64,000 nt of DNA from Pseudomonadota bacterium (GCA_039814715.1 JBCCAR010000018.1:4856-68855), one strand, 5' to 3'; counted from the stretch's first letter, positions 8,283 through 25,842 are shown. Notes: generated by a model from the sequence alone, not told the origin. Numbers and translations are program-made.

Positions 8283-9908
8283 ATGTTGTGTCTCTGTTGG
8301 AAAGAAAACATGTTTTTTCAATCTATATCAAAGCCTACATGGCTCATTGCGATGCTTGTTTTAGCGAGCGTTGCTATCCATGGCGTTAACGTCGATGGGG
8401 ATGTTGGATGGGGGGGAGGCGACTGGGCCACCTATATTTGGGGGGCTGAAAACCTCCTAGGTGCGCGTCCTTGGGGCGAGGCGCCTTATCTCGTGAACCC
8501 ATTTAAAGATGCCGGCGTAACCAAAGTGCCGCCGCTCTATCCTGCCGTCCTCACTTTGCCGGTCAGCATCTTTGGCCGGGATTTTCTGGCGATTGGCCTC
8601 TTCAATGTTGTGCTTTTCGGTCTCGGGCTGGCCACGTTGTTGGTGTTTGCGCGGCATCGTCCACTGGCCGGGGAGCGCATGTCTAACTTTGCGCTCGGCG
8701 CGCTGTGTCTGGCCTATGCCGGAAGCCCTATGCTCTGGCGTTGGAGTGGCGCTCTCTTTTCAGAAAATCTCTTTTTGCCAATCATCTTTCTAGCGTTCAT
8801 CGCCTGGGATCGGTTTGCCAAACGCAGAACGAAGGCCAGTTTACTCCTGGTATTTGTTTTCTGTGCCTTGGCGATTGCAACCCGCGTTGTTGGCATCGCT
8901 CTTATTCCTGCATTAGGCCTCGCTCTACTGGCCCAGGATCGTGCTCTCACACTGAGGGCCGTCGCATTGCCAGCCGCGCTATTGCTCGTAGGCTTGCTCG
9001 TATTTTTATCCTTCGGCGTTTTAGATCAATATCTAACGGTCTTCTCTTCAAACGCAGCCCTAGACAGTGGGGCTGAGCTAACAGCTCCAGACGTACGAAG
9101 TGCCGGCGGAACTGTTACATCGATTTTGGGCGAGTTGCCGTCAAAATTGGCTGACGTTCCTGGCAAGCTCTCTGCCTTCTGGTCGGATCGATTAGGCGGC
9201 GCCTCGCCAGCGATCAAGCTAGGCGCGCGTTTCATCACGCTGCTTGTTCTTTTGCTATCGACCATTGGTTTTATGGTGTCTTTGGTGCGCCGCACGAGCC
9301 TCGCGGAGGGCTTTATGATCGGGTACCTCGCCATGATGCTCATTGTACCCGGCGCGATGAATGGTGCGCGGATGTACGGCCCCATTGGTGCATTGATGAT
9401 GTATTATACTGTCGCCGCGCTGCAGTGGCTCGGCGAACAACAACAGCGCTTTACTCCGGTTCATACGCCTCTGGTTGTTTTCATCGTTTTGCTCTTAGGG
9501 TCCTACGCCTATTTCTTTGCCCAGGAGCGTCCTTCAAATCTAGCCTCACCATATAGTCCATCAGCGCAAACTTTTTTTGAGTTCGTAAAAGACAATACCG
9601 ACGCGAACGACATCTTGGTTGGTCATCGGCCCCGCGGTGTGGGCTTCTTTACCGGCGTGACGTGTATTGAATGGCATACCAAAACGGCTAGCGATGATTT
9701 TGTCATGTGGATGGCGGATTTGGGCGCTGAGTACCTTTACGTGGACCGTTACTCAGCCCCGCTTGAGAAGATCATGAACGAAAAGTCTGGGTCTTTCCGC
9801 GACGCGGCTGATGCCTATATTGCGCCCAACGCACATCGGTTTGACCGCATTTTCGCGAACGACCGATTTGTGATGTATCGCTTCATTTCAAGCCCGGCGT
9901 CTCGCTGA
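8283..9908 (+). CDS. Polytopic membrane protein, GT-C-fold (ArnT/PMT/GtrC-like) glycosyltransferase candidate
   Basis: 541 aa with roughly ten or more hydrophobic spans, then a soluble C-terminal part of about 130 aa. The first loop carries the acidic motif NVDGDVGWGGGDW. It is divergent from the GT2-GtrA genes. The call rests on architecture and context, not on a recognised signature. Confidence 0.55.
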   Translation: MLCLCWKENMFFQSISKPTWLIAMLVLASVAIHGVNVDGDVGWGGGDWATYIWGAENLLGARPWGEAPYLVNPFKDAGVTKVPPLYPAVLTLPVSIFGRDFLAIGLFNVVLFGLGLATLLVFARHRPLAGERMSNFALGALCLAYAGSPMLWRWSGALFSENLFLPIIFLAFIAWDRFAKRRTKASLLLVFVFCALAIATRVVGIALIPALGLALLAQDRALTLRAVALPAALLLVGLLVFLSFGVLDQYLTVFSSNAALDSGAELTAPDVRSAGGTVTSILGELPSKLADVPGKLSAFWSDRLGGASPAIKLGARFITLLVLLLSTIGFMVSLVRRTSLAEGFMIGYLAMMLIVPGAMNGARMYGPIGALMMYYTVAALQWLGEQQQRFTPVHTPLVVFIVLLLGSYAYFFAQERPSNLASPYSPSAQTFFEFVKDNTDANDILVGHRPRGVGFFTGVTCIEWHTKTASDDFVMWMADLGAEYLYVDRYSAPLEKIMNEKSGSFRDAADAYIAPNAHRFDRIFANDRFVMYRFISSPASR

Positions 9909-9933
9909 CGCTGCGATAGCTGCGTTAAATGGA

Positions 9934-10008
9934 TGGTGGGCGGTACTGGGATCGAACCAGTGACCCCTTCGATGTCAACGAAGTGCTCTCCCGCTGAGCT
10001 AACCGCCC
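9934..10008 (-). tRNA. tRNA-Val (anticodon GAC)
   Basis: The reverse complement is GGGCGGTTAGCTCAGCGGGAGAGCACTTCGTTGACATCGAAGGGGTCACTGGTTCGATCCCAGTACCGCCCACCA. This is 75 nt with a full cloverleaf, anticodon loop TTGACAT, T-loop GGTTCGATCC and an encoded CCA. Confidence 0.95.
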
Positions 10009-10199
10009 TTTAGGCCCGTCGTGCCTATAGTGGACGCGGACATACACTGCCCGAATAAGGCATGGCAAGCGCAAAAACGATGCAGCACTAAGCACTGCGA
10101 TTGCGCGGCCCGGTGCGAGTTGTTACACAGCAGGCCATATAGATACTTTGGCAGCCAATTCGCGCGCCTGCTGAGAAGACCTTTAGAAAGATAAGACCC

Positions 10200-10763
10200 A
10201 TGAAAATTGACGGAAATGCCATTCGCCCCGGCAATGTGATCGAGTATGAGGGTGGGCTATGGCGCGCTGTTAAAATCCAGCATACGCAGCCGGGCAAGGG
10301 CGGGGCTTATCTGCAGGTTGAGCTAAAAAACCTGATCGAAGGCACGAAGAAAAATGAGCGCTTTCGGTCCTCGGCAAAAGTCGAAAAAGTCAGGCTGGAT
10401 CAGAAGGATTTTCAGTTTTTATTCGGTGATGGCGATACGTTCACCTTCATGGATCAAGACACCTATGACCAGATTGCTTTGCCTGCTGAAGACGTTGGCG
10501 AACAGGCTGTCTTTCTGCAAGACGGCATGGTGGTGACCATTGAAATGTATGAGGAGAAGCCAATTTCGGTTGCTTTGCCAGAGCATGTTACGTTGGAAAT
10601 AACCGAAACCGAACCCGCCATTAAGGGGCAGACGGTGACCTCTTCCTATAAGCCTGCGATGACAGACATCGGCGTGCGCGTCATGGTCCCGCCGTTTATC
10701 GATCAAGGCACAAAAGTGGTCGTGGCGACGGAAGATTCGACCTATGTAAAGCGCGCGGAATAG
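10200..10763 (+). CDS. efp: Elongation factor P
   Basis: 187 aa beginning [44 protein letters not shown]. Confidence 0.95.
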
Positions 10764-10772
10764 GTCGCTCAG

Positions 10773-11594
10773 ATGCCCTTTCAATCAGCGCTTATTAACG
10801 TCATGACCCAGGCGGCCCGCAAGGCCGCTTGGAATATGACACGTGACTTTGGCGAAGTAGAACAGTTGCAGGTCTCCAAAAAAGGCCCAGCGGACTTTGT
10901 CAGCCAGGCGGATCGGCAAGCCGATGAAATTTTGCGCGAGGAGCTGACGCGTGCTCGCCCTGATTTTGGTATTGTTCTGGAAGAATCAGGTGCAACAAAC
11001 GTGCGTCCAGACGGTCCGCGCTGGATTGTGGACCCCATCGACGGGACCAGCAATTTCCTGCACGGCATTCCCCATTTTGCCATCTCGATTGCCGCCGAAC
11101 AATATGGCGAGATCACCGCTGCGATCGTTTATGAGCCGCTGCAAGACCAGCTTTTCTGGGCGGACAAAGGGCGCGGGTGCTATCTCAATGAGCGCCGCCT
11201 GCGTGTCTCTGGGCGCCGCAAGCTTGACGAATGTTTGTTTGCAACGGGTATCCCTTTCAAAGGGCGCGGGGGTTTCGGCCGTTTTAGTCATATCCTAGAT
11301 GAAGTGATGCCCCAGGTGGCTGGTATCCGACGCTTTGGTGCAGCGTCGCTGGATTTGGCCTATGTGGCCGCTGGCCGCTTTGATGGGTTTTGGGAAGAAG
11401 ATTTAAAGGAGTGGGATATCGCTGCCGGAATGTTCCTGGTGAGAGAAGCCGGCGGCATTGTGACAGATATCCGCGGCTCTGATCAGATGCTGAAGACAGG
11501 CGGCCTTGTCGCCGCCAACAGCGCGATCCATAGTCAACTCCACAAGTTGATTGCGCGGGGCATTAAAGCCCATAGAGATGCCCAAGAGGATTAG
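10773..11594 (+). CDS. suhB: Inositol monophosphatase family protein (SuhB-like)
   Basis: IMPase motifs WIVDPIDGTSNFLHG and WDIAAG are present. 273 aa. Confidence 0.88.
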   Translation: MPFQSALINVMTQAARKAAWNMTRDFGEVEQLQVSKKGPADFVSQADRQADEILREELTRARPDFGIVLEESGATNVRPDGPRWIVDPIDGTSNFLHGIPHFAISIAAEQYGEITAAIVYEPLQDQLFWADKGRGCYLNERRLRVSGRRKLDECLFATGIPFKGRGGFGRFSHILDEVMPQVAGIRRFGAASLDLAYVAAGRFDGFWEEDLKEWDIAAGMFLVREAGGIVTDIRGSDQMLKTGGLVAANSAIHSQLHKLIARGIKAHRDAQED

Positions 11595-11600
11595 CTGTTT

Positions 11601-13145
11601 TTGGGCGAGTATGGCCACCGACTTAAGGGGAGGGAACCAGTGAGCCTTGAAGATCTAGCATTTGAATCCACGTCAAACCTGGCGCGTCATATCGCAAAAG
11701 GCGATGTGACCAGCATGGAGCTTGTTGATCTTTTTGCCGGGCGGCATGATCGTTTCGGAGGCACGGTCAATGCCGTGGTGCAGACTGATTTTGACCGCGC
11801 CCGCACATTGGCTAAAGACGCAGACCAAGCCCTTGCGGATGGCAAAGAAATCGAACCGCTCCACGGCGTGCCCTTCACGATCAAGGAATGCTATGAAGTC
11901 GCTGGCTTCAAAGCGACCGCTGGCGCTCCAGAGCTGGCGGGCCATACCCCAGGAGAAGATGCAGACGCTGTTAAAAACCTGCATCAGGCAGGCGCCATTT
12001 GCATGGGCAAGACGAACGTCCCTTATATGGCATTCGACCTGCAGAGCTTTAATGATGTCTATGGCACTACAAACAATCCCTGGGACGTGACGCGGACATG
12101 CGGCGGCTCGTCCGGCGGGTCGGCGGCAGCGCTTGCTGCTGGTTTAACTGGTGGTGATATCGGCAGCGACATCGGCGGTTCGCTTCGTAATCCAGCCCAT
12201 TACAACGGCATTTATAGCCACAAACCGACGTTCGCTTTGGTGCCAGAATACGGACACATCCCACCAGCGCCGGGCACGGTGTCCCGCACGGACCTCTCTG
12301 TTATGGGGCCCATGGGCCGCAGCGCAGATGATTTAAAACTGCTCCTGGATGTTCTTATGCGCCCCGTTGGCCTCGAGCGTAACAGGCAGATAACGCTGCC
12401 AAAGCCTAGAAAGACACAACTTGAAGACTTCCGGGTTGCGATTTGGCCGGGCCATCACAGCAATCGCCCCTCTCGCGCTATAGCAGAGCGTATGGATGCC
12501 TTGTCGGCTGCTCTAACTGGGAATGTGGAAAAATTCCAGGAAGCCTGGCCGCTTGATGCCAGCTATGAAGAGCTCGTATCGGTTTATGCCAAGCTGTTGC
12601 TTGGCGCAGTGTCTAGCGGAACGCCCGCGCTGCAATTTGCCATTGCGCAGGCTGCAACGCCATTTCTTAGCGTGCTCAAAGCGATTGGCGTTCATAATGA
12701 AAAAGGGGTGACAGGGCAGCTGCTGAGCACCGCCCAATCCCATAAAGCCTGGGCGCTCGCAAATGAGACACGCGCGCGCATGCGCCGCGAGATTGACAGG
12801 TTCTTTGAGCAATTTGACGTGCTGTTAATGCCTGTTATTCCTTGGACTGCGCCAAAGCATGATCATAGCGGTACGATTTTATCGCGCACCGTGATGGTCG
12901 ATGGTAAGAGCAGGCCCTACACAGACGCGCTCGATTATATTGCGCTTGCGACTGCTCTTTATTTGCCGTCTACCGTCGCGCCAATCGGTCTGGCAAGTGA
13001 TGGCCTGCCTGTCGGCGTGCAAATTGTCGGGCCGTATATGCATGATGCGACAACGATTGCCTTTGCCCAGGCACTGGGCGAGGTGATCGGCGGGTATGTG
13101 CCGCCGCCTGATTTTAAAGATGCATCTGCCCCAAAATCGCCTTAG
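11601..13145 (+). CDS. Amidase-signature family enzyme
   Basis: AS signature GGSSGGSAAALAAGLTGGDIGSDIGGSLRNPA, with the catalytic Lys context FTIKECY. The ORF opens at TTG 11601; GTG 11641 (VSLEDL) is an alternative start. Confidence 0.88.
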   Translation: MGEYGHRLKGREPVSLEDLAFESTSNLARHIAKGDVTSMELVDLFAGRHDRFGGTVNAVVQTDFDRARTLAKDADQALADGKEIEPLHGVPFTIKECYEVAGFKATAGAPELAGHTPGEDADAVKNLHQAGAICMGKTNVPYMAFDLQSFNDVYGTTNNPWDVTRTCGGSSGGSAAALAAGLTGGDIGSDIGGSLRNPAHYNGIYSHKPTFALVPEYGHIPPAPGTVSRTDLSVMGPMGRSADDLKLLLDVLMRPVGLERNRQITLPKPRKTQLEDFRVAIWPGHHSNRPSRAIAERMDALSAALTGNVEKFQEAWPLDASYEELVSVYAKLLLGAVSSGTPALQFAIAQAATPFLSVLKAIGVHNEKGVTGQLLSTAQSHKAWALANETRARMRREIDRFFEQFDVLLMPVIPWTAPKHDHSGTILSRTVMVDGKSRPYTDALDYIALATALYLPSTVAPIGLASDGLPVGVQIVGPYMHDATTIAFAQALGEVIGGYVPPPDFKDASAPKSP

Positions 13146-13147
13146 GG

Positions 13148-14329
13148 TTGACCAATCAACGAGCGAGGCGAAGTGACATCAAGCAGGCTGAGGACATGAC
13201 CCGACCACTCAGATTTTTGCTGCCCATGGCAGGTTTTTTGCTGGCTGTGGTCGCAGTTGCCGTGATCTTGTGGCCGCGGCTTGAAGCGGCCTTCCGCAGC
13301 AATCTAGTGATCAATGGCGTGATCGTTTTTGTGCTTGCTGTCGGCTGCCTCTATATCCTCCGGCAGGTCTCCCGCTTACAGCCTGATATAGATTGGATCG
13401 CCTCATATGAAAAAGGCGGGAAAGCCGACGATCAGCCGTCCCCGCCGCTACTTGCGTCCCTTTCCAGTCTGTCGCGGTCGGGTCCGCTGGCGCTGAACCC
13501 GATCTCTCTGCGGTCGCTTGCAGACGGCATTGCTGCCCGCCTCGATGAGCGCCGCGAGCTCTCGCGCTATTTGGTTGCTTTGCTTGTTTTCCTTGGCCTT
13601 TTGGGCACCTTCTGGGGGTTGCTCGGCACGATTTTGGCGATTGGCAACACCATCAATGGGCTTAATGTCGATTCAAGTGACGTCCCTGCGATGTTTGAAG
13701 GCCTTAAGGCAGGCCTGCAAGCGCCGCTCTCTGGCATGGGAACGGCTTTTTCATCCTCGCTGTTCGGCTTAGCCGGTTCGTTGATCTTAGGGTTTTTGGA
13801 CCTGCAGCTGGGCCGGGCGCAAAGCCGGTTTTTCAATGAACTTGAAGACTGGCTGTCCGCTCATGTTATTCCGCTGGAAATTGGCGGCAAAGAGCTTGAT
13901 GGCGTGCAGCCTGCGAGCGGCCCGAGCGCATATATGCGCACGATCATGGCGCAGTCCGCGGATTCGCTGGACGCCATGGAACGGCGCCTGTCGAAAGCCG
14001 ATCAGGAGCGTGACCGCTTGATCCAAACACTTGGCGCTCTGCAATCAACGCTAAGCAGTTTAGAAACCCGCTCTGAGAAACAAGCCGAGGCCTTGCTGCA
14101 GCTCGCGGCCGCCACGCAAAAGACAGCGAATAAGACGGATGATGCAAGCGTACAGGCCCTAAAGGACTTACGCGCAACCGTCGCAGGCTTGGCCGATGCC
14201 CAATCGGCAGGGCGGGCGCAAGTGTCGGACGACATTAATGCAGCGGCGACCCGGCTAGGGCGCACCATTGCCGCCATTTTGGATGACCGGGAACCAGACA
14301 AGCCTGCTGCTCCTGGAAGCGCGCTCTAG
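13148..14329 (+). CDS. MotA/TolQ/ExbB-family ion-channel protein with a C-terminal coiled-coil tail of about 170 aa
   Basis: Four hydrophobic spans. The family motif region is LGLLGTFWGLLGT...LSGMGTAFSSSLFGLAGSLILGFL. The C-terminal part is Ala/Leu/Gln/Arg-rich and reads as helical. The ORF opens at TTG 13148; the first ATG is at 13196 (MTRPLRF). Confidence 0.8.
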   Translation: MTNQRARRSDIKQAEDMTRPLRFLLPMAGFLLAVVAVAVILWPRLEAAFRSNLVINGVIVFVLAVGCLYILRQVSRLQPDIDWIASYEKGGKADDQPSPPLLASLSSLSRSGPLALNPISLRSLADGIAARLDERRELSRYLVALLVFLGLLGTFWGLLGTILAIGNTINGLNVDSSDVPAMFEGLKAGLQAPLSGMGTAFSSSLFGLAGSLILGFLDLQLGRAQSRFFNELEDWLSAHVIPLEIGGKELDGVQPASGPSAYMRTIMAQSADSLDAMERRLSKADQERDRLIQTLGALQSTLSSLETRSEKQAEALLQLAAATQKTANKTDDASVQALKDLRATVAGLADAQSAGRAQVSDDINAAATRLGRTIAAILDDREPDKPAAPGSAL

Positions 14330-15426
14330 TGGCAACGCGGCTCGGACGGCGGGGGCCTCAATCAGGGGCGGATTTGAGCTGGCCAGGCTTTGTGGACGCC
14401 TTGTCCAGTTTGTTGCTGGTTGTCATCTTTGTCCTGCTTATTTTCTTCTTGTCGCAAACGTTTCTATCCGTCGCGCTGTCGGGACGGGACGAAGCCTTGG
14501 CCGCGTTGCGCGCTGATTTAAATGATCTCTCGCGCCAGCTCAGCATGGAGAAAAGCACCTCGTCCTCCTTACGCGACGAGATCACAGCCTTGAGCGCGAG
14601 TTTGTCGACGGCGCTGCAAGACAATGAGGGGCTGAAGACGCAAGTGACAGGTCTATCCAGTCAACTTGAGGAAGCGCAGTCCAACTTGGCGCGGGCTGCG
14701 GAAGATCAAGCATCTGCTCAGGCGCAGATAACGACGCTCACCGTGGATTTAGAAGAGCGCGCAAAGCAGCTCGAGGCAGAGCAGGCGGTAACCTCCGCTG
14801 CCCGTGATGAGATTGCTCTGCTCAACCAAAACCTGTCAGCCCTTCGCCAGCAGATTGCGGCACTAGAACAAAAGCTTGATGCCTCTGAACAGAAAGACAA
14901 ACGACAAGAAGCCGTCATCAAGAACTTAGGAGAGCGTCTCAACGCTGCGCTTGCCAGCAAGGTGGCAGAGCTGTCTGACTATCGCTCTGAGTTCTTTGGG
15001 CGCTTAAAGGCGCTGCTGGGCGCGCGGCCCGATATTACAGTTGAAGGCGATCGTTTCGTTTTCCAGTCTGAACTGCTGTTCGCTTCGGGCTCGGCGAGTT
15101 TGGGCGCGGAAGGCAAACGGCAACTGGCCACCATAGCCGAAACGCTGCTCACCATTGCGAGTACTATTCCTGATGACTTCAACTGGGTTTTGCGCGTGGA
15201 TGGGCATACCGATGTGTTGCCTATCAATACAGTCCAGTTCCCCAGCAATTGGGAATTGTCGCAGGCGCGCGCTCTATCGGTCGTTAAGTTTTTGATCAGC
15301 GAAGGTGTGCCTGCAAAGCGTCTTGCTGCGGCAGGCTTTGGGCCGTATCAGCCCCGCGATAAGCGAAATAGTTGGGAGGCCTACCGCACTAACCGGCGTA
15401 TCGAATTGCGGCTGGACCAGAGCTAG
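14329..15426 (+). CDS. MotB/OmpA-family peptidoglycan-binding protein with a long periplasmic coiled coil
   Basis: The GTG start overlaps the upstream stop (TAGTG). A single TM helix follows a conserved Asp (WPGFVDALSSLLLVVIFVLL). A heptad-rich segment of about 170 aa comes next, then an OmpA-like C-terminus (VLRVDGHTD...WELSQARALSV...NRRIELRL). Confidence 0.82.
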   Translation: MATRLGRRGPQSGADLSWPGFVDALSSLLLVVIFVLLIFFLSQTFLSVALSGRDEALAALRADLNDLSRQLSMEKSTSSSLRDEITALSASLSTALQDNEGLKTQVTGLSSQLEEAQSNLARAAEDQASAQAQITTLTVDLEERAKQLEAEQAVTSAARDEIALLNQNLSALRQQIAALEQKLDASEQKDKRQEAVIKNLGERLNAALASKVAELSDYRSEFFGRLKALLGARPDITVEGDRFVFQSELLFASGSASLGAEGKRQLATIAETLLTIASTIPDDFNWVLRVDGHTDVLPINTVQFPSNWELSQARALSVVKFLISEGVPAKRLAAAGFGPYQPRDKRNSWEAYRTNRRIELRLDQS

Positions 15427-15429
15427 CCT

Positions 15430-16308
15430 ATGCGACCCAAAGCGCACATTGCCGCTGACCTGAGCTTAATTGAAACAGGCAGCTTGGCAAACAAGGCAGC
15501 CACTTTGCTCGACGAGGCTATGCAAGCGCCGCGCGGCAAAGTGCTTGGGCTGACGGGCCCGCCCGGCGTTGGCAAAAGCTCGCTCACGCAAAAGCTCGTG
15601 GAACACTGGGTAGGGCAGGGGCTACGGGTTGCTGTTCTGGCGATTGATCCGTCCTCAAGGCGCTCTGGCGGCGCCCTTTTGGGCGACCGGACGCGAATGA
15701 ACCTCTCCAGTCACGGCGAGCTCGCATTCATTCGCTCTATGGCGGCTGGTCGTCGGCTTGGGGGTCTCAGCGATGCCGCCTTTCCAGCATGCGTTTATTT
15801 GCGTGCGCATTTTGACCGCGTGATTTTAGAGACGGTGGGTGTTGGCCAATCTGAAACAGAAATTACAGCTGTGGCTGACTGTGTTGGCCTGTGCATTCAG
15901 CCGGGCAGCGGCGATAGCTTGCAGTTCATGAAAGCGGGTATAGCTGAAGTGCCAGGCATTGTGTTTGTCACAAAAGCCGACCTTGGCCAACTGGCGCGGC
16001 AAGCTGCGGCGGATGTGGAAGGCGCTTTGTCATTGTCGCGCAATGAAGCATCTCACGCGCAAGTATTGCTCGTGTCGGCCAAAACGGGCGAAGGGCTGGC
16101 AGAGGCGGCGGCTGCGCTTGATGAGACGCTGCACACACCCGCTGGCGCAGTGCTCGCGCAGCAATTTCATGATTATGCCCGTGAAAGCTTGCAAAAGCAG
16201 GCTGGCGCGCTCGCGCTCTCAGCTCCTGGGGCAAGCAAACCCGTTGGATTTAGGGACCTAGCGCAGCTGCTTGGCCGCCTGCGCGTCTCATTGGCTAACG
16301 AACACTAG
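15430..16308 (+). CDS. G3E-family P-loop GTPase, MeaB/ArgK-like
   Basis: Walker A GLTGPPGVGKSSL, then AIDPSSRRSGGALLGDRTRM, Walker B ETVGVGQSE and the NKxD-like motif VTKADL. 292 aa. The ATG lies 3 nt after the upstream stop. Confidence 0.8.
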   Translation: MRPKAHIAADLSLIETGSLANKAATLLDEAMQAPRGKVLGLTGPPGVGKSSLTQKLVEHWVGQGLRVAVLAIDPSSRRSGGALLGDRTRMNLSSHGELAFIRSMAAGRRLGGLSDAAFPACVYLRAHFDRVILETVGVGQSETEITAVADCVGLCIQPGSGDSLQFMKAGIAEVPGIVFVTKADLGQLARQAAADVEGALSLSRNEASHAQVLLVSAKTGEGLAEAAAALDETLHTPAGAVLAQQFHDYARESLQKQAGALALSAPGASKPVGFRDLAQLLGRLRVSLANEH

Positions 16309-16360
16309 GGCTGTAATAACCAGCGCCGCCGCAAACCCAAAGGTGATGAGGAGGCGTTTG

Positions 16361-17194
16361 TCAGACCGCTTCTTTCTTTTTGCCATTGTCTGCTTCTTCT
16401 TGTGATTTGATGACGGTTGCTTCTAGCCAGTCCGGCAGCCAAGGGGTCAGAGACACATCTCCCGCCATAAGCGGTGCTTTTGAAATGTCTTCTACCTTTA
16501 AGTTCGCAAGGGCTTTTTGACCATTGGTCGAGCGCACATCGCCGATCTCGCGTTCGCCGAACTTAATTGGCGTCCCTGGCGGAATGTCTGCCTTAGCTTG
16601 CACCGGAATAAGCCTGCGTCTTACCTTGCCGCGGTAGCGCATGCGCGCTGTTAGCTCTTGGCCGACATAGCACCCCTTCTCAAAATCAACGCCGTTTAGA
16701 AGGTCTGCATTGGTTTCGAGCCACAGGGTCTTGTCCTGCAAGAAATCCGCCGGGCCATCGGGGATGCCATGGGCGAGACGGTGCGAGAGATAAGCGGCGA
16801 TATCCGCCGTTGGCGTTCCATCCAGGCGTCGGCTGCCCATGGCAGGATGCCGGGGGTCTTGCCATGCCTCAGGCGTGTCATCCAGATGAGCGAAGATGGT
16901 GTTGTCACTGTCGCTAATCTCAACCTTGGACCTTAGCTTATACATCATCAATTTGCGCTTGAGCTCTGTTAAATGCACTTCGCTACAATCAAGCAGCAAC
17001 GCGTCATCCACCTCGGTGATGAAAAAATCGTAGAGATACTTGCCCTGCGGTGTTAGCAACCCAGCGTAAAGCCAGCGCTCTGGGGCAATTTTATTCACGT
17101 CATTGGTGATGAGCCCCTGCAGGAAGCTCTTTCGTTCTTCACCAGACAGTATGAGCACGCGGCGATCAATCAATTGAATACAACGATCAGACAT
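16361..17194 (-). CDS. ygfZ: Folate-binding YgfZ/CAF17 family protein (GcvT-like)
   Basis: Motifs FLQGLITNDV, LLTPQGKYLYDF and KGCYVGQELTARMRYRGKVRRRL are present. The start is placed at ATG 17192-17194 (MSDRCIQL). The longer ORF to 17335 would overlap the pyrC start. Confidence 0.85.
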   Translation of the reverse strand: MSDRCIQLIDRRVLILSGEERKSFLQGLITNDVNKIAPERWLYAGLLTPQGKYLYDFFITEVDDALLLDCSEVHLTELKRKLMMYKLRSKVEISDSDNTIFAHLDDTPEAWQDPRHPAMGSRRLDGTPTADIAAYLSHRLAHGIPDGPADFLQDKTLWLETNADLLNGVDFEKGCYVGQELTARMRYRGKVRRRLIPVQAKADIPPGTPIKFGEREIGDVRSTNGQKALANLKVEDISKAPLMAGDVSLTPWLPDWLEATVIKSQEEADNGKKKEAV

Positions 17195-19993: not shown

Positions 19994-20626
19994 ATGTCTC
20001 AAGTGCTTGATACCGATCAGATGGATTTTGCTAGCCAGATGTGCTCGCGGCTCTGTCATGATCTGATCAGCCCCGTTGGCGCGATTGCCAACGGCCTTGA
20101 AATCTTGGCCGATGAAGATGATCCAGACATGCAAAAGCAGGTCATCGATCTGCTCAACCAAAGCGTCCAAGTCACGTCTGCAAAGCTACGGTTTTTCCGC
20201 ATGGCTTTTGGCGCGCCTGGCGGTATGGAAGGTAATGTCGACACGCGCGAAATGCGCTCAGCGGTCAGCGATTTTATGCAAGCCGGGAAGACCTCGTTGA
20301 ATTGGCAGATTTCCGCTAGCCAATTGCCCAAACCGCACGCAAAGTTGATCTTGATTGCGGCAATGATCTGCGGTGATGCGCTTGTGCGCGGCGGGGAGGT
20401 CGCTTTGTCGGGCAGCGCTGAAGGTGGCTTTATGATTGAAGGCGCAGGCGATAAAGTTGTGATAGACGAGCAGATTGTCTCGCTGCTAGACGGCGCGGCT
20501 GTACCAACGCAGCACACTAGCCGCTATGCGCCCTACATCTTATTCGTCAGTTTGCTGAAAAATCTAGCCATACAGCACAGGCTATCCGTCACCGACGAGC
20601 GTATTATCGTCACCATCCAGCCCTAG
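19994..20626 (+). CDS. chpT: Histidine phosphotransferase ChpT
   Basis: The motif SRLCHDLISPVGAIANGLEILADE is the DHp-like His box of ChpT. The C-terminal domain is a degenerate CA-like domain. 210 aa. Confidence 0.85.
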   Translation: MSQVLDTDQMDFASQMCSRLCHDLISPVGAIANGLEILADEDDPDMQKQVIDLLNQSVQVTSAKLRFFRMAFGAPGGMEGNVDTREMRSAVSDFMQAGKTSLNWQISASQLPKPHAKLILIAAMICGDALVRGGEVALSGSAEGGFMIEGAGDKVVIDEQIVSLLDGAAVPTQHTSRYAPYILFVSLLKNLAIQHRLSVTDERIIVTIQP

Positions 20627-20661
20627 CGCGATTGTATTTATCTTGCATTCTATGAGCCTGC

Positions 20662-20677
20662 TTTAGCGGTTCTTAAC
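20662..20677. promoter_or_regulatory. Candidate CtrA box (TTTA-N7-TTAAC) upstream of cheA
   Basis: TTTAGCGGTTCTTAAC has one mismatch to the TTAA-N7-TTAAC consensus. It sits about 100 bp upstream of the cheA ATG in an AT-richer spacer. Confidence 0.3.
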
Positions 20678-20774
20678 CCTTGTCAGCGACAGTTCGCTCT
20701 TCATGCCGCGCAGCCTGCCAGGTTGCTGCCGGTATGGTTGCAACAAGACGCCGAACAACGGGCAAGGGCAAGCA

Positions 20775-23700
20775 ATGGACGATCTGCTAAGCGAATTTTT
20801 GACGGAAACCAACGAAAGCATTGATGTGGTCGATGTAGAATTGGTTCGGCTAGAGCAAAACCCGAATGATAGCGAGGTTTTGGACAATATTTTCCGCTTA
20901 GTGCATACGATCAAAGGGACGTGCGGCTTCTTGGGCCTGCCGCGTCTTGAAGCAGTCGCACACTCGGGCGAAAACGTGCTGGGCAAGTTCCGGGATGGAG
21001 AGTTGTCGGTCACGCCCGGTGCCGTCACGCTGATCCTCGCCTCTCTTGACCGGATTAAAGAGCTTCTCGCTGCCCTGGAAGAAAATGAAGTAGAACCAGA
21101 CGGCGACGATAACGATCTGATCGAACAGCTGGATGCTTGCGCTGAAGGCAAAGGCCCGGCAGCGGAGGCTGCGCCTTCAAGTGTGCCGGAGCCAGGCGCT
21201 GCAAGCGAGCCGGAAGACACAGCCGATCCAGGACTTGGGCGTCCCTTAAAAGCAGGCGAAGTCTCGCTTGATGAGCTGGAAGCTGCTTTTGCCGCTGCGC
21301 CAGGTCCTGACGATATACCTGCGCCCACGGTGAGCGAAACGCAAGCATTGGCAGCTGAGCCAATGACTGATGCATCAGACGTTGACGACGCTGTTCTGCG
21401 CGACTTTGGCGGCTTGGCCGGCGTGATCGGCGCTTATGAAAGCGCGCTTGAAATATTGGTTCAGAGCGGCAAATGCCCAGCGCTGGCAGAGCCGGAAAAA
21501 ATGGCGGCGGTGAGCGACAATCTCGGCCGCCTTACCCTCTCCGCGATGCAGAAAGACGAGGCCAGCACAGCAAACTATGCGCAACTGGTCCAAACCGCGA
21601 TGGTTTGGGATGTGGCAACACTCGCGTCCGTTTCCTCAGGCATGCGCGCGGAGCTCGCTGGCTTTGGGGTGTCGAGCGATGAACTTGATACGGTGCAGGG
21701 CGCACTGGAGAAACAGGCGCATCTCATCGTTCCGCCCGCGCCGAAAGATGATGCAAAAAAAGCTGACGCAGACAAAGGCGGCCAGAAAACCGGCAGCAAC
21801 CAAAGCGTTCGCGTGAATGTGGACTTGCTGGAAGATTTGATGAACTTGGTGAGCGAGCTTGTTTTGACGCGTAATCAGCTCAATCAAATGGTTCGCAGGC
21901 TGGAAGATAGCGAATTTGCCGTCCCACTGCAGCGCTTATCGCAATGCACGACAGAACTGCAAGAGGGGGTTATGAAAACCCGGATGCAGCCAATCGGCAA
22001 TGCATGGTCTAAGTTGCCGCGTATCGTACGTGATCTAAGCCTGGATCTAGATAAAGACATTGAACTGGAAATGCACGGCGCTGAGACCGAGCTTGACCGG
22101 CAAGTGCTGGAGCTCATCAAAGACCCGTTAACGCATATGGTGCGTAACAGCGCTGACCATGGTGTTGAAACGCCGCAAGTGCGTGAGCGGTCAGGCAAGC
22201 CTGCGCAGGGCACAATTAAGCTGGATGCCTATCATGAAGGCGGCCATATCGTCATCACGATTGCCGACGATGGCGCAGGCATCAATGCTGAAAAATTAAG
22301 AGAAAAAGCGCTGGAGAACGGCTTAGCCAGTGAGGCTGAGCTTGATGCTATGAGCGAAAACCAAATTCAGCGTTTTATTTTCCATGCAGGTTTATCCACT
22401 GCGCAAGCTGTCACCAGTGTCTCTGGCCGCGGCGTTGGAATGGACGTTGTGCGCACCAATATCGAGAAAATCGGCGGGACAATCGACATGACGTCGACTG
22501 TCGGGAAGGGCACGACGTTCTTTATCAAAATTCCGCTGACCTTGGCGATTGTCTCTGCGCTTATTGTTGAGTCCCATAAAGAACGATTTGCCATTCCTCA
22601 AATTGCCGTGCTTGAGCTCGTCCACGCTGATAGCAAGGGCGAGAATGCGATTGAGCATATCAACAACACACCGGTGTTCCGCCTGCGCAACCGGTTGCTC
22701 CCATTGGTTCATCTGCGCGATGTACTAGGCTTTGAGCGCCGTGAAGATGAGCGCGAGACGTTTATCGTCGTCACACAGGTTGGCTCCTTCGTGTTCGGCA
22801 TTGTGGTTGATCAGGTCTTCGATACTGAAGAAATCGTCGTGAAACCTGTCGCGCCTGCCCTTGCAAACCTGAACACGTATTCCGGTAATACGATTTTGGG
22901 CGATGGATCGGTGATTATGATCTTGGATCCCAACGGTGTTGCTTCCAAGGTCTCCACAACCAACACGGAAGCAGAACAAGATGGCGCCGATGGTAATGCT
23001 GCCGATGGCCGCCTATCTGACCGTGAGACAATGCTTCTGTTTAAAGCAGGCAACGACACGCCAAAAGCAGTGCCGCTCTCATTGGTGGCAAGGCTTGAAG
23101 AAATCGAAGTTGAGCGCATTGAAAACCGCGACGTACGTCCCACCGTTCAGTATCGCGGTCAACTTATGCCTGTCCTGACGCTGAACGGCGGCAAAGCTCT
23201 TCAAGAGGAAGGCAAACAGCCCATCTTGGTGTTCACAGATGATGAACACTCTATGGGCATTGCCTGTGACGAAATTCTGGACATTGTTGAAACTGATTTG
23301 TCGGTGGAAATCTCTACGCAGCGCGATGGTATTTTAGGCACGTCAGTGATTGCAGAAAAAGTCACTGATATCATCGACGTGGCCTATTATTCTAAGACAG
23401 CATTTAGCGATTGGTTCTCTTCTGACAAAAAGGCCATCGGAACCCAAGCGGCCGGCATGCAGGCCAATGCAAAGGTTCTCGTCGTGGAAGACAGCGCCTT
23501 TTTCCGCAATATGCTGCGTCCTCTGCTCACGGCTGCAGGCTACGCCGTTACGGTCGCGCAGGACGCGGAAGAAGCGCTGGCGATGCGTGAACGTAGCAGA
23601 GACTTTGACCTCATCGTCTCCGACATTGAAATGCCTGGGAAGTCTGGATTTGAACTGGCGTCAGACATTCGTGCCGGTGGCCGCTGGCAGGGCGTGCCGA

Positions 23701-23852
23701 TGATTGCTCTATCTTCCCTAAGTGACGCAAAAGACTTTGAGAAGGGCCGCAAAGCTGGCTTTAACGATTATGTCGTCAAGCTGGATCGCGACGCGCTGCT
23801 GGAGACTATGGTTGAGCAGCTCAATGCCCATGCAGCGCGTAAAGCAGCGTAG
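20775..23852 (+). CDS. cheA: Chemotaxis histidine kinase CheA with a C-terminal receiver domain (CheA-REC hybrid)
   Basis: Hpt domain with LVHTIKGTCGFLG, dimerisation region VRVNVDLLEDLMNLVSELVLTRNQL, HATPase (HMVRNSADHG, DDGAGI, GRGVGMDVV), a CheW-like P5 domain, and REC (VLVVEDS...VSDIEMPG...VVKLD). The start is placed at ATG 20775 (MDDLLSEFL); the ORF opens at 20703. Confidence 0.93.
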   Translation: MDDLLSEFLTETNESIDVVDVELVRLEQNPNDSEVLDNIFRLVHTIKGTCGFLGLPRLEAVAHSGENVLGKFRDGELSVTPGAVTLILASLDRIKELLAALEENEVEPDGDDNDLIEQLDACAEGKGPAAEAAPSSVPEPGAASEPEDTADPGLGRPLKAGEVSLDELEAAFAAAPGPDDIPAPTVSETQALAAEPMTDASDVDDAVLRDFGGLAGVIGAYESALEILVQSGKCPALAEPEKMAAVSDNLGRLTLSAMQKDEASTANYAQLVQTAMVWDVATLASVSSGMRAELAGFGVSSDELDTVQGALEKQAHLIVPPAPKDDAKKADADKGGQKTGSNQSVRVNVDLLEDLMNLVSELVLTRNQLNQMVRRLEDSEFAVPLQRLSQCTTELQEGVMKTRMQPIGNAWSKLPRIVRDLSLDLDKDIELEMHGAETELDRQVLELIKDPLTHMVRNSADHGVETPQVRERSGKPAQGTIKLDAYHEGGHIVITIADDGAGINAEKLREKALENGLASEAELDAMSENQIQRFIFHAGLSTAQAVTSVSGRGVGMDVVRTNIEKIGGTIDMTSTVGKGTTFFIKIPLTLAIVSALIVESHKERFAIPQIAVLELVHADSKGENAIEHINNTPVFRLRNRLLPLVHLRDVLGFERREDERETFIVVTQVGSFVFGIVVDQVFDTEEIVVKPVAPALANLNTYSGNTILGDGSVIMILDPNGVASKVSTTNTEAEQDGADGNAADGRLSDRETMLLFKAGNDTPKAVPLSLVARLEEIEVERIENRDVRPTVQYRGQLMPVLTLNGGKALQEEGKQPILVFTDDEHSMGIACDEILDIVETDLSVEISTQRDGILGTSVIAEKVTDIIDVAYYSKTAFSDWFSSDKKAIGTQAAGMQANAKVLVVEDSAFFRNMLRPLLTAAGYAVTVAQDAEEALAMRERSRDFDLIVSDIEMPGKSGFELASDIRAGGRWQGVPMIALSSLSDAKDFEKGRKAGFNDYVVKLDRDALLETMVEQLNAHAARKAA

Positions 23853-23864
23853 AGGAGGCAGACC

Positions 23865-24329: not shown

Positions 24330-24350
24330 AGCTGAGCGAGGAGGCGGACA

Positions 24351-25837: not shown

Positions 25838-25842
25838 CCTTT

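What the first reader, a model, noticed from the sequence alone, without database searches (positions are those of the whole stretch)
13148..15426. Orphan MotA/MotB-type stator pair in which both subunits carry long coiled-coil extensions
The 393-aa product has MotA/TolQ/ExbB hallmarks: four hydrophobic spans, with GLLGTFWGLLGT and SGMGTAFSSSLFGLAGSL in the last two. A tail of about 170 aa rich in Ala/Leu/Gln/Glu/Arg follows and reads as coiled coil. The next gene starts on the first gene's stop codon (TAGTG) and encodes a 365-aa MotB/ExbD-like partner. That partner has a short N-terminus and one TM helix headed by the conserved acidic residue (WPGFVDALSSLLLVVIF). It then has a heptad-rich Ser/Leu/Gln/Ala/Glu segment of about 170 aa and an OmpA/MotB peptidoglycan-binding domain (VLRVDGHTD...NRRIELRL). 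No flagellar, Tol-Pal, TonB, gliding or Zorya ZorC/ZorD-type genes are in the window. The neighbours are efp, suhB, an amidase and a G3E GTPase. About 170 helical residues would span roughly 25 nm, far longer than a classical MotB linker. The pair reads like an uncharacterised 5:2-type ion-driven motor whose driven partner or output is unknown.
Basis: partly seen in the sequence, partly recalled or inferred. Interest (0 to 1): 0.8.

Follow-up and report, generated by a model that had tools for sequence, protein, structure and literature searches.

The report
Conserved non-flagellar ZorAB-like envelope motor
These two overlapping genes encode a membrane ion-driven motor pair, wrongly labelled "flagellar MotA", that is inherited as a core gene pair across Alphaproteobacteria. 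It is tied to the cell wall by a rigid coiled-coil rod, and what it drives is still unknown.

Summary
Gene A runs 13148/13196..14329 and its true product is probably 377 aa from the ATG at 13196. Gene B runs 14329..15426 and starts on A's stop codon (TAGTG).

- **A:** four hydrophobic helices, and a TM3/TM4 core that matches ZorA profiles specifically. E. coli MotA, ExbB and TolQ controls do not match those profiles.
- **B:** one TM helix with an invariant Asp23, a proline-free helix of about 180 residues, and a canonical OmpA-type peptidoglycan-binding domain.
- **B's rod:** across 172 relatives its length ranges from 151 to 463 residues and changes in whole heptads (p about 2e-15). It is therefore a continuous coiled coil with a conserved register.
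- **A's tail:** a constant two-helix module of about 120 aa on a flexible linker. It is not a long continuous coil.

The pair is not an orphan. A and B are adjacent in 77 of 80 related loci, usually after efp-suhB. In 54 of 80 loci a third gene, X, sits just upstream and encodes a Pro-rich, Pal-like OmpA protein. X is missing in this window. The family was not found on phage contigs or on true plasmids.

Flagellum-less Komagataeibacter hansenii carries an ortholog, published as "motAB". Overexpressing it gives elongated, chained cells.

My best reading is a housekeeping, wall-anchored 5:2 motor related to ZorAB. It is neither a flagellar stator nor a Zorya defence system, and its output is unknown.

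The parts
13196..14329 (+). Gene A: ZorA-like subunit of the MotA/ExbB/TolQ superfamily. 377 aa from the ATG at 13196; the mechanical ORF starts at a TTG at 13148.
   Evidence: 100% identical to the NCBI protein P0001 (377 aa), and homologues align from MTRP. PADLOC ZorA3 1.1e-13 and ZorA1 4e-10. Pfam PF01618 scores 19.8 bits, below the 22.9 cut-off. Foldseek best hits are ExbB, TolQ, ZorA and PomA.
13214..13360 (+). A TM1 (residues 7-25) and TM2 (residues 37-55): an N-terminal hairpin. This gives a 4-TM, N-in topology like MotA, whereas ZorA has 3 TM helices.
   Evidence: Hydropathy peaks of 2.79 and 2.69. AlphaFold2 helices 4-24 and 37-72. ZorA's 3-TM topology is taken from PMC11946911.
13559..13810 (+). 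A TM3, periplasmic loop and TM4 (residues 122-205): the putative ion-pathway core. It holds the invariant GLLGTFWGL (Thr138) and GMGTAFSSSLFGL (Ser186-188).
   Evidence: Invariant columns. This is the only stretch matched by the ZorA profiles and by PF01618. hhalign pairs GLLGTFWG with TolQ and ExbB GLFGTVWG.
13865..13927 (+). A flexible linker (residues 224-244), rich in Gly, Pro and Ser, and rich in indels across the family.
   Evidence: pLDDT below 50 at residues 230-241. The alignment columns are variable. The tail length shows no heptad quantisation.
13928..14287 (+). A cytoplasmic tail module: helix 245-311 and helix 316-364, separated by a variable loop. A conserved motif (L.RTIAA) lies near the C-terminus.
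   Evidence: AlphaFold2 helices. Hydrophobic periods of 3.5 and 3.65, above 95% of shuffles on the alignment profile. R356, T357 and A360 are nearly invariant. The distance from the EDW motif to the RTIAA motif is mostly 136-152 residues in 306 sequences.
14329..15426 (+). Gene B: MotB/ZorB-like axle subunit of the PRK09039 'peptidoglycan-binding protein' family. Its GTG overlaps A's stop codon (TAGTG).
   Evidence: NCBIfam NF006543 scores 416.8 bits, above the 305 cut-off. Adjacent to A in 77 of 80 loci.
14380..14466 (+). B transmembrane helix (residues 18-46) carrying the invariant Asp23 (codon 14395-14397) within WPGFVDAL.
   Evidence: Invariant W18, P19, G20, F21, V22, D23, A24 and L25. 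A single hydropathy peak of 2.95. No Pfam MotB_plug hit in residues 1-60.
14476..15018 (+). B periplasmic coiled-coil rod (residues 50-230, about 27 nm if straight). The N-proximal half is variable. The C-proximal part, about 90 aa, is conserved (...LG.RLN.ALA.KV.EL..YRSEFFGRL).
   Evidence: One AlphaFold2 helix from 21 to 230, with pLDDT of about 90 over residues 90-160. No prolines. Period 3.5. The distance from WPG to YRSEFF ranges from 151 to 463 residues, and 29 of the 53 distinct values are congruent to 4 mod 7 (chi-square 81, p 2e-15).
15034..15420 (+). B OmpA/MotB-type peptidoglycan-binding domain (residues 236-364).
   Evidence: Pfam OmpA 2.3e-15, 57 bits against a 27.2 cut-off. PDB sequence matches to the periplasmic domains of MotS, MotB, TssL and PomB. 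Invariant D291, G292, H293, T294, D295, N307, W308, L310, S311, R314 and A315.
10200..11594 (+). efp and suhB: the conserved upstream synteny anchors of the family.
   Evidence: tblastn finds suhB in 50 of 80 loci and efp in 43 of 80 loci, upstream of A on the same strand. The same order holds in Azospirillum, K. hansenii and S. meliloti.
11601..13145 (+). Amidase gene. It sits where gene X lies in most relatives and is a lineage-specific insertion, not part of the module.
   Evidence: Pfam Amidase 4e-91. A homologue is present in only 2 of 80 loci. An HMM built from X finds nothing in the window except a weak hit to B's own OmpA domain.
15430..16308 (+). MeaB/ArgK-like G3E GTPase gene, 3 nt after B. 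Lineage-specific neighbour, not part of the module.
   Evidence: Pfam MeaB 1e-58. Found in 1 of 80 loci, only in the close relative L001.

Best explanation
A and B form a two-gene version, lacking X, of a vertically inherited module. The module is found mainly in Alphaproteobacteria and more commonly has three genes, X-A-B. It encodes a non-flagellar, non-defence 5:2-type ion-driven motor from the ZorA-like branch of the MotA/ExbB/TolQ superfamily.

**Proposed working.**
- Two B chains form the axle. Their TM helices carry Asp23. They continue into a rigid, parallel, heptad-registered coiled-coil rod. The rod is about 27 nm here and 20 to 66 nm across the family.
- The rod ends in a dimeric OmpA-type domain that fixes the axle to peptidoglycan.
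- Five A chains surround the axle. Protons pass between B-Asp23 and A-Thr138/Ser186-188. This flow turns the A ring around the anchored B dimer.
- The motion, or its stalling, is passed to five cytoplasmic two-helix tail modules. These hang on flexible linkers and carry a conserved C-terminal motif that probably binds a partner not yet identified.
- In most relatives a secreted or lipoprotein X, with a Pro-rich spacer and an OmpA-like domain, probably adds a second wall or outer-membrane attachment. X resembles Pal.

**Likely role.** The role is most likely housekeeping at the cell envelope, possibly in division or cell separation.

**Shown here.**
- The gene pair, its domain anatomy and its invariant residues.
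- Co-conservation and synteny of A and B.
- Specific profile similarity of A's core to ZorA.
- Heptad quantisation of B's rod.
- No member found on phage contigs or true plasmids.
- Presence of the pair in a flagellum-less species.

**Inferred.**
- The 5:2 stoichiometry.
- The ion type.
- Rotation of the A ring.
- Which subunit moves.
- The output and the cellular role.
For: **Anatomy.**

**Profile similarity.** A's core matches ZorA profiles (PADLOC 1e-13 to 4e-10; NCBIfam ZorA_4 6e-5). No NCBIfam MotA, TolQ or ExbB model hits A at E<=1. The control shows E. coli MotA and ExbB with no ZorA hit and TolQ at only 2.5e-3.

**Fold.** The model matches ExbB, TolQ, ZorA, PomA and MotA chains.

**B family.** B passes the NF006543 cut-off.

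**Co-conservation.**
- A and B are adjacent in 77 of 80 loci, and tightly coupled.
- efp and suhB lie upstream in 43 and 50 of 80 loci.
- The same order holds in Azospirillum, K. hansenii and S. meliloti.
- X lies upstream in 54 of 80 loci. X matches Pfam OmpA and has a lipobox or signal peptide.

**Family size.** 417 clusters at 50% identity at E<=1e-30.

**Not mobile.** No relative among 2.9 million viral contigs. The only 5 'plasmid' hits are 3.5-4.6 Mb replicons that I read as chromosomes.

**Rod.** Heptad quantisation with p 2e-15 for B, against a uniform distribution for A's tail.

**Ortholog.** The K. hansenii protein P0521 is 40% identical to A (E 1e-59). That strain lacks flagellum and pilus genes. 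Overexpressing motAB there gives elongated or chained cells and wider colony spreading (PMC6315621, PMC6570709).
Against: - No experiment shows ion conduction, stoichiometry or rotation for any member of the family.
- Pfam PF01618 is below its gathering score.
- The PDB sequence search with the A profile finds only coiled-coil noise.
- Foldseek TM-scores are modest (about 0.5), and the A model's tail has pLDDT of 52-71.
- A flexible linker of about 20 residues between TM4 and the tail would transmit torque poorly.
- B rods of 36 to 66 nm cannot stand perpendicular in a periplasm of 20 to 30 nm (that width is from my own knowledge). The geometry of wall anchoring is therefore unclear.
- The only functional data are overexpression phenotypes. 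The polar GFP foci could be aggregates, and a C-terminal GFP on B would sit in the periplasm (my inference).
- X is absent from the window, so a partner may be missing or encoded elsewhere.
Confidence: 0.6

Rival explanations
1. A second, Tol-Pal-like force-transducing system. A acts like TolQ. B fuses a TolR-like Asp axle to a TolA-like long helical arm. X acts like Pal. The system would use the proton-motive force to tether or pull the wall and outer membrane during constriction or cell separation.
For: - A shares the TolQ/ExbB GTxWG motif, and its best fold hits are ExbB and TolQ.
- X has a lipobox or signal peptide, a Pro-rich spacer and an OmpA-like domain.
- Overexpression in K. hansenii gives chains and filaments, which the authors compare with overexpression of tolQ and tolR (PMC6570709 and PMC6315621).
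Against: - No NCBIfam TolQ or TolR model hits at E<=1.
- B ends in a MotB-type wall-binding domain, not in a TolA domain III or a TolR-type domain.
- S. meliloti has this pair as well as a canonical TolQ (SMc03958).
- X is missing from the window and from 26 of 80 loci.
- No protein of the size of the S. meliloti A (368 aa) or B (342 aa) appears in the Rgs/Tol pull-down tables held as text.
Confidence: 0.2
2. A Zorya-like anti-phage sensor: a ZorAB motor whose effectors are unlinked or not yet recognised.
For: - The best profile hits for A are ZorA3, ZorA1 and ZorA_4. ZorB3 also hits B, at 8e-20.
- Like ZorA, A has a C-terminal cytoplasmic helical tail (PMC11946911).
Against: - NCBIfam ZorA scores are 16 to 22 bits, against cut-offs of 100 to 700.
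- The tail is about 120 aa on a flexible linker, against about 500 aa continuous with the motor in ZorA.
- A has 4 TM helices against 3 in ZorA, and no beta-hairpin is modelled in its cytoplasmic loop, unlike ZorA's membrane-proximal domain.
- No ZorC-G-like gene recurs among the conserved neighbour clusters of the 80 loci. None was seen among the roughly 30 largest window ORFs scanned.
- The pair has conserved core-genome synteny across many named alphaproteobacterial groups.
- It was not found on viral contigs or true plasmids.
Confidence: 0.07
3. A passive structural tether between the inner membrane and the cell wall, or a periplasmic spacer, that has lost motor activity.
For: - B has a long rigid rod and a wall-binding domain.
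- B's length varies widely.
- A's cytoplasmic loop is short, and no driven partner is known.
Against: B-Asp23 and the A Thr/Ser-bearing motifs are invariant in the 20-sequence alignments, whose members are 39-83% (A) and 51-83% (B) identical to the window proteins. The WPG..D anchor recurs in all 172 B sequences measured. That is the pattern expected for a working ion pathway rather than a scaffold.
Confidence: 0.08
4. A genuine flagellar stator (MotAB), as the public annotation says.
For: - Public names are 'flagellar motor protein MotA' and 'chemotaxis protein MotB'.
- A has a 4-TM topology.
- B's wall-binding domain is closest to MotS and MotD.
- A che cluster lies 5 kb away.
Against: - No MotA NCBIfam model hits A.
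- hhalign against E. coli MotA gives probability 9.6%.
- The cytoplasmic loop is about 65 aa, so there is no room for a torque-generating domain.
- There is no MotB plug.
- The pair is never next to flagellar genes in the 80 loci.
- The pair is present and conserved in K. hansenii, which has no flagellum or pilus genes (PMC6315621).
Confidence: 0.03

Closest known systems
ZorAB, the motor of the Zorya anti-phage system (cryo-EM structures 8QYD-type and 8VVN; PMC11946911, PMC11890865)
   Same: - A's TM3/TM4 core matches ZorA profiles specifically.
- The B-like partner has a TM Asp and a dimeric OmpA-type wall-binding domain.
- Neither has a MotB plug.
- In both, the A subunit carries a C-terminal helical cytoplasmic tail.
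   Different: - The tail is about 120 aa in two helices on a flexible linker. In ZorA it is about 500 aa forming a 70-nm pentameric bundle continuous with the motor.
- A has 4 TM helices against 3 in ZorA.
- No beta-hairpin is modelled in A's cytoplasmic loop, unlike ZorA's membrane-proximal domain. The Ca2+ site was not examined.
- B has a coiled-coil rod of 20 to 66 nm that ZorB lacks.
- There are no ZorC, D, E, F or G genes nearby.
- The pair has core syntenic inheritance rather than a defence-island distribution.
Komagataeibacter (Novacetimonas) hansenii ATCC 23769 'MotA/MotB' (Jacek et al. 2018, PMC6315621; 2019, PMC6570709)
   Same: - It is the same family. P0521 (348 aa, accession EFG85642.1) is 40% identical to A over the full length (E 1e-59).
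- Its 321-aa partner has the same WPGYVD helix, coiled coil, YRSEFFGRL motif and OmpA layout.
- It has the same efp-suhB synteny.
   Different: - The K. hansenii locus has X, and a shorter B rod.
- The published work covers only overexpression and GFP tagging. It treats the proteins as MotAB-like proton pumps of unknown role.
- The ZorA-likeness, the coiled-coil rod and X were not described there.
Flagellar stators MotAB and PomAB
   Same: - A has a 4-TM, N-in topology.
- B has an Asp in its TM helix and a MotB-type wall-binding domain preceded by a helix (NCBIfam MotD 1.5e-29, covering B residues 185-362).
   Different: - There is no torque-generating cytoplasmic domain.
- There is no plug.
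- No MotA model hits A.
- The genes are not in a flagellar context.
- The pair is present in non-flagellated species.
TolQ-TolR-TolA-Pal and ExbB-ExbD-TonB
   Same: - A carries the GTxWG motif in its pore helix, and its best Foldseek matches are ExbB and TolQ.
- The long helical periplasmic arm of B recalls TolA domain II.
- X recalls Pal (lipoprotein plus OmpA-like domain) and the Pro-rich spacer of TonB.
   Different: - The arm is fused to the Asp-bearing axle rather than carried on a separate protein bound to the outside of the A ring.
- B's C-terminal domain binds the wall rather than an outer-membrane partner.
- There is no TolR/ExbD-type periplasmic domain.
GldLM and PorLM, the type 9 secretion and gliding motor
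   Same: It is a 5:2 motor whose dimeric B-like subunit carries a long periplasmic rod. It sets a precedent for output on the periplasmic side.
   Different: - The GldM rod is built from globular domains and reaches an outer-membrane track.
- Here the rod is a plain coiled coil ending in a wall-anchoring domain.
- No sequence similarity was detected.

Membership tests
MotA/ExbB/TolQ 5:2-motor superfamily (A subunit) | Pfam PF01618 match at or above the gathering score | tested here: not met
   16.7 bits for the whole protein and 19.8 bits for the core alone, against a cut-off of 22.9. The alignment covers the pore helices (residues 125-187).
MotA/ExbB/TolQ 5:2-motor superfamily (A subunit) | Fold of the last two TM helices and the overall chain resembles solved A subunits | tested here: met
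   Foldseek against PDB: ExbB 5sv0 at E 7e-4 with probability 1.0 and TM-score about 0.5 on the target. TolQ, ZorA 8vvn, PomA and MotA follow.
MotA/ExbB/TolQ 5:2-motor superfamily (A subunit) | Conserved polar residue (Thr) in the pore helix motif G(L/F)(L/F)GT.WG | tested here: met
   GLLGTFWGL is invariant in the family. hhalign pairs it with GLFGTVWG of TolQ and ExbB.
MotA/ExbB/TolQ 5:2-motor superfamily (pair) | Adjacent, co-conserved B gene encoding one TM helix with an essential acidic residue | tested here: met
   Asp23 is invariant. A and B are adjacent in 77 of 80 loci, and the start and stop codons overlap in the window.
MotA/ExbB/TolQ 5:2-motor superfamily (pair) | A5B2 stoichiometry and ion-driven rotation | not testable with these tools
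   No multimer modelling and no experiment was available.
Zorya ZorAB | ZorA and ZorB models at curated score | tested here: not met
   NCBIfam ZorA_4 scores 22.2 bits (cut-off 500) and ZorA_2 scores 16.5 bits (cut-off 100). PADLOC ZorA3 at 1e-13 covers only residues 138-223.
Zorya ZorAB | Linked effector genes (ZorC and ZorD, ZorE, or ZorF and ZorG) | tested here: not met
   None was seen among the roughly 30 largest window ORFs scanned. The conserved neighbours in 80 loci are efp, suhB, X and an ABC exporter only.
Zorya ZorAB | Long (about 500 aa) pentameric tail continuous with the motor | tested here: not met
   About 120 helical residues in two helices follow a low-confidence linker. The length is not heptad-quantised.
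Zorya ZorAB | Patchy distribution associated with defence islands or mobile elements | tested here: not met
   Conserved synteny across many named alphaproteobacterial groups. No relative on viral contigs. Only mega-replicon 'plasmid' records that I read as chromosomes.
Flagellar stator MotAB/PomAB | MotA-type cytoplasmic torque-generating domain between TM2 and TM3, and a match to a MotA model | tested here: not met
   The loop is about 65 aa. No NCBIfam MotA hit at E<=1. hhalign against E. coli MotA gives probability 9.6%.
Flagellar stator MotAB/PomAB | MotB plug (PF13677) after the TM helix | tested here: not met
   No Pfam hit in B residues 1-60 at E<=10.
Flagellar stator MotAB/PomAB | Occurrence tied to flagella | tested here: not met
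   An ortholog is present in K. hansenii ATCC 23769. That strain is reported to have no flagellum or pilus genes (PMC6315621).
NCBIfam NF006543 (PRK09039.1-2) 'peptidoglycan-binding protein' (B) | Full-length match above the curated cut-off | tested here: met
   416.8 bits against a cut-off of 305, covering residues 5-364 of B and positions 3-349 of the 350-position profile.
OmpA/MotB peptidoglycan-binding domain (B, C-terminus) | PF00691 above the cut-off, with the conserved wall-contact residues | tested here: met
   57.1 bits against a cut-off of 27.2. The TD...N..LS..RA motif is invariant. Actual binding was not tested.
Tol-Pal / Ton | Matches to TolQ/ExbB and TolR/ExbD family models, and a TolR/ExbD periplasmic domain | tested here: not met
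   No such NCBIfam or Pfam hit for A or B. Only the short pore motif aligns.

The most novel reading that the evidence does not exclude
The pair, with X in most lineages, is a housekeeping sister lineage of the Zorya motor. On this reading it is a wall-anchored, proton-driven rotary device present in much of the Alphaproteobacteria. It would report or act on the state of the cell envelope at poles or division sites through a cytoplasmic tail module. The heptad-locked B rod would serve as a torsionally rigid shaft or lever whose register with the ion-binding Asp is functionally required. This would be a new functional class of 5:2 motor. It would also hint at the cellular machine from which the phage-sensing ZorAB was recruited.
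Probability: 0.3. Interest if true: 0.85.

Novelty: new variant of a known kind. Interest (0 to 1): 0.66.

Why it matters
Six kinds of 5:2 ion-driven motor have known outputs: flagellar stators, Ton, Tol, gliding Agl, type 9 GldLM and Zorya. This family is large: 417 clusters at 50% identity at E<=1e-30, and more than 583 species genomes. It sits in the core genome, including in tractable organisms such as S. meliloti, Azospirillum and Komagataeibacter. It is systematically mis-annotated as "flagellar motor protein MotA", and its output is unknown.

Its core is closest to ZorA. It may therefore show what a ZorAB-type motor does outside immunity, and how envelope events are passed to the cytoplasm.

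The heptad quantisation of B's rod gives a direct experiment. Inserting 7 residues should be tolerated, while inserting 3 or 4 should not if the rod's register matters.

There is also a practical side. Overexpression changes cell chaining and the architecture of cellulose pellicles in Komagataeibacter. The annotation of thousands of genomes should be corrected.

Tried and rejected
**Literature leads that gave nothing.**
1. S. meliloti Rgs polar-growth proteins as possible members: unrelated proteins. No protein of 368 or 342 aa appears in their pull-down tables.
2. Search for PRK09039: irrelevant hits.
3. Searches for ZorAB-like, orphan or MotA-like pairs in Alphaproteobacteria: nothing on this family. 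The MotAB evolution paper (PMC12505986) does not treat it, and it excludes ZorAB from its tree.

**Searches with no usable signal.**
4. PDB sequence search with the A profile: coiled-coil noise only.
5. Promoter and terminator scan of 9800-16600: no more sites than in shuffled sequence.

**Tools or records not available.**
7. P0001 is not on record in the contig index.

**Ideas rejected on the evidence.**
8. The amidase and the MeaB-like GTPase as operon partners. They are present in only 2 and 1 of 80 loci.
9. The CheA-W-Y-B-R cluster as a functional link. It is not conserved near the pair.
10. B's coil as an antiparallel hairpin. AlphaFold2 gives one continuous helix with high confidence through the midpoint. 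Length changes come in whole heptads with a conserved register.
11. A's tail as a continuous ZorA-like bundle. It has a flexible linker, a variable inter-helix loop and no heptad quantisation.

Full report
**1. Observation**

The two ORFs are present as described. Gene A runs 13148..14329 from a TTG, giving 393 aa. All homologues, and the identical NCBI protein P0001 (377 aa), start at the ATG at 13196 with MTRPLRF. The real product is therefore most likely 377 aa. Gene B runs 14329..15426 (365 aa), and its GTG overlaps A's TAG.

- A has four hydrophobic spans and B has one.
- In A, GLLGTFWGL and GMGTAFSSSLFGL are invariant in 20 homologues that are 39-80% identical to it.
- In B, WPGFVDAL with Asp23 is invariant, as is the OmpA wall-contact motif.
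- Each protein has more than 8000 database homologues.

**2. Family assignment**

*Subunit A.*
- It scores just below the Pfam MotA_ExbB gathering score: 16.7 bits whole and 19.8 bits for the core, against 22.9.
- No NCBIfam MotA, TolQ or ExbB model hits it at E<=1. The only motor models that do are ZorA subfamilies, far below their cut-offs.
- PADLOC ZorA3 and ZorA1 models hit residues 138-223 at 1e-13 to 4e-10.
- As a control, E. coli MotA and ExbB give no ZorA hit and TolQ gives only 2.5e-3. The ZorA-likeness of the pore core is therefore specific.
- hhalign against E. coli TolQ and ExbB aligns only the GTxWG pore motif. Against MotA the probability is 9.6%.
- The AlphaFold2 model has pLDDT 76. 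It matches ExbB, TolQ, ZorA, PomA and MotA chains with TM-scores around 0.5. This confirms the superfamily but does not discriminate within it.

*Subunit B.*
- It is a full-length member of NCBIfam NF006543 (PRK09039.1-2, "peptidoglycan-binding protein"), at 417 bits against a cut-off of 305.
- It has a Pfam OmpA domain. The closest solved relatives are the periplasmic domains of MotS, MotB, TssL and PomB.
- It has no MotB plug.

**3. Anatomy of the extensions**

*B's rod.*
- AlphaFold2 models B as a single helix from residue 21 to 230, followed by the OmpA fold. pLDDT is about 90 over residues 90-160.
- Residues 50-230 contain no proline.
- The hydrophobic period is 3.5.
- I measured the distance between the TM anchor WPG(F/Y/W)xD and the motif (Y/F)R(S/T)(E/D)FF in 172 non-identical relatives. 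It ranges from 151 to 463 residues.
- Of the 53 distinct distances, 29 are congruent to 4 mod 7. Most of the rest fall in classes offset by 3 or 4, that is 0 and 1 mod 7. Chi-square is 81 and p is 2e-15.
- The rod is therefore a continuous heptad coiled coil. It grows and shrinks by whole heptads, or by canonical stutters, and it keeps its register between the Asp helix and the conserved segment next to the wall-binding domain.
- If straight, it would be about 27 nm here and about 20 to 66 nm across the family. That is too long in many species to stand upright in the periplasm. The periplasm width is from my own knowledge.

*A's tail.*
- The distance from the pore core to the EDW motif is invariant: 37 residues in 306 of 306 sequences.
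- The tail is nearly constant in size, mostly 136-152 residues between anchors. Its length shows no mod-7 pattern (p 0.97).
- AlphaFold2 shows a low-confidence, indel-rich linker at 224-244, then helices 245-311 and 316-364 separated by a variable loop.
- A therefore carries a compact two-helix module on a flexible linker, not a long continuous coil.

**4. Distribution and context**

They are mostly Alphaproteobacteria: Azospirillum, Rhodospirillaceae, Kiloniellales, Kordiimonas, Acetobacteraceae, Dongia, Defluviicoccus, Thalassobaculum and Hyphomicrobiales. A few are Gamma- or Betaproteobacteria.
- A and B are adjacent in 77 of 80 loci. The three exceptions are short loci of 2-6 kb. Intergenic gaps are -4 to about +50 nt in nearly all loci where both ORFs were resolved.
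- suhB lies upstream in 50 of 80 loci and efp in 43 of 80. An ABC exporter lies convergent downstream in many of the 24 loci that carry it.
- The amidase (2 of 80) and the MeaB-like GTPase (1 of 80) that flank the pair in the window are lineage-specific.
- In 54 of 80 loci a third gene, X, lies directly upstream of A on the same strand. X has a signal peptide or lipobox, a long Pro/Ala-rich spacer and a C-terminal Pfam OmpA domain. X is absent from the window.
- The same efp-suhB-(X)-A-B order is seen in Azospirillum and K. hansenii. In S. meliloti the order is suhB-A-B without X, and efp is not in the region retrieved.
- No relative was found on 2.9 million viral contigs. The only five "plasmid" hits are 3.5-4.6 Mb Sinorhizobium and Shinella replicons that I read as chromosomes.
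- The A core alone recovers 417 clusters at 50% identity at E<=1e-30.
- The window itself is housekeeping: dnaG, rpoD, efp, suhB, argS, tatC, serS, secD and topA. A CheA-W-Y-B-R cluster lies at about 20-26.7 kb but is not conserved near the pair.

**5. Prior knowledge**

No paper in the held library describes the family as such. One member has been handled experimentally.

- The "motA" (348 aa) and "motB" (321 aa) of flagellum-less Komagataeibacter hansenii ATCC 23769 are orthologs. P0521 (accession EFG85642.1) is 40% identical to A at E 1e-59. It has the same synteny, including X, and the same B layout.
- Overexpression gave elongated or chained cells, about threefold wider colony spreading and looser cellulose. 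C-terminal GFP fusions formed polar foci (PMC6315621, PMC6570709).
- The authors state that the strain has no flagellum or pilus genes and that the driven partner is unknown.
- These are overexpression data only. Polar foci can be aggregates, and GFP at B's C-terminus would be periplasmic (my inference).

**6. Mechanism**

Best supported is an A5B2-type ion-driven motor. The B dimer is fixed to peptidoglycan through a register-locked coiled-coil rod. The A ring turns around it by ion flow through Asp23 and Thr138/Ser186-188. The tail modules couple to an unidentified cytoplasmic partner, and X adds a second wall or outer-membrane attachment in most lineages.

Stoichiometry, ion, rotation and output are all inferred. 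The role is probably housekeeping at the envelope, and a link to division or separation is only hinted at.

Rival readings and my estimates:

| Reading | Confidence |
|---|---|
| Tol-Pal-like force transducer | 0.2 |
| Passive tether | 0.08 |
| Zorya-like defence sensor | 0.07 |
| Flagellar stator | 0.03 |

**7. Verdict**

Its core interpretation holds: an uncharacterised 5:2-type motor with unknown output. Four corrections apply.

1. The pair is not an orphan.
2. It is ZorA-like rather than MotA-like.
3. Only B carries a long true coiled coil.
4. One ortholog has been superficially studied.

It is a new variant of a known kind of machine. It is widespread, mis-annotated and experimentally accessible.

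Noticed in passing
L074 4853-5959, L081 7163-7948, L086 6246-6986, and 54 of 80 related loci directly upstream of A. Absent from the window.: A third conserved gene, X. It has a signal peptide or lipobox (Azospirillum: ...LAVTAC), a long Pro/Ala-rich spacer and a C-terminal OmpA-like domain (ARRLSLSRALAVR..L...GV.STRIDVRALG). The layout resembles Pal and TonB. In the window an amidase gene occupies this position.
   Followed up: partly
window 14476-15018, and B homologues in loci L001-L080 and proteins P0121-P0240: The length of B's coiled coil varies threefold (151-463 residues between anchors) but in steps of 7 residues: 186, 193, 200, 207, 214, 221, 228, 235 and so on. Minor classes are offset by 3 or 4. 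This is a phase-locked rod whose purpose is unexplained.
   Followed up: yes
window 19994-26694: A chemosensory cluster: a ChpT-like histidine phosphotransferase, a CheA-CheY hybrid (1049 aa), CheW, CheY, CheB and CheR, 5 kb downstream of the pair. It is not conserved near the pair in related loci.
   Followed up: partly
window 4246-6255 (+), against L011 8411-10147 (-) and L087 9056-10870 (-): The ABC exporter (ABC_membrane plus ABC_tran) lies convergent just downstream of B in many of the 24 related loci that carry it, including S. meliloti. In the window it lies 7 kb upstream on the + strand. The window's lineage has rearranged the locus and also gained the amidase and the MeaB-like GTPase.
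   Followed up: partly
A homologues P0021, P0024, P0050, P0057, P0065, P0066, P0073, P0094 and P0105 (alignment A1, columns 420-517): A subset of A proteins, of which only two carry a source name (Emcibacter sp., Emcibacteraceae), carries an extra low-complexity C-terminal extension. It ends in a conserved basic motif: (D/N)Y.MP.(P/V).PK..KKP, then 0-8 variable residues, then L(T/R)A(K/R)(K/R)(D/E)(D/E)(D). The window protein lacks it. Its function is unknown.
   Followed up: no
window 13148-13198: The longest ORF of A starts at a TTG 3 nt after the amidase stop. Homologues and the NCBI call start at the ATG at 13196. This leaves a 50-nt spacer and weakens the impression of tight coupling between the amidase and A.
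   Followed up: yes
PLSDB records CP090106.1, NZ_CP069303.1, NZ_CP104131.1, NZ_CP104127.1 and NZ_CP104135.1: Records of 3.5-4.6 Mb in the plasmid collection look like Sinorhizobium and Shinella chromosomes rather than plasmids. CP090106.1 is titled pSymB. The CP090106.1 region I retrieved carries core genes (rpmE, purE, suhB). 'Plasmid' hits for core genes in this collection should be read with care.
   Followed up: partly
window 30909-31790 and 39491-40543: A SPOR-domain protein gene followed by nagZ, and an M23/LysM peptidase gene, lie 15-25 kb downstream. These are cell-wall and division genes on the same chromosomal stretch. No conserved linkage to the pair was seen.
   Followed up: no
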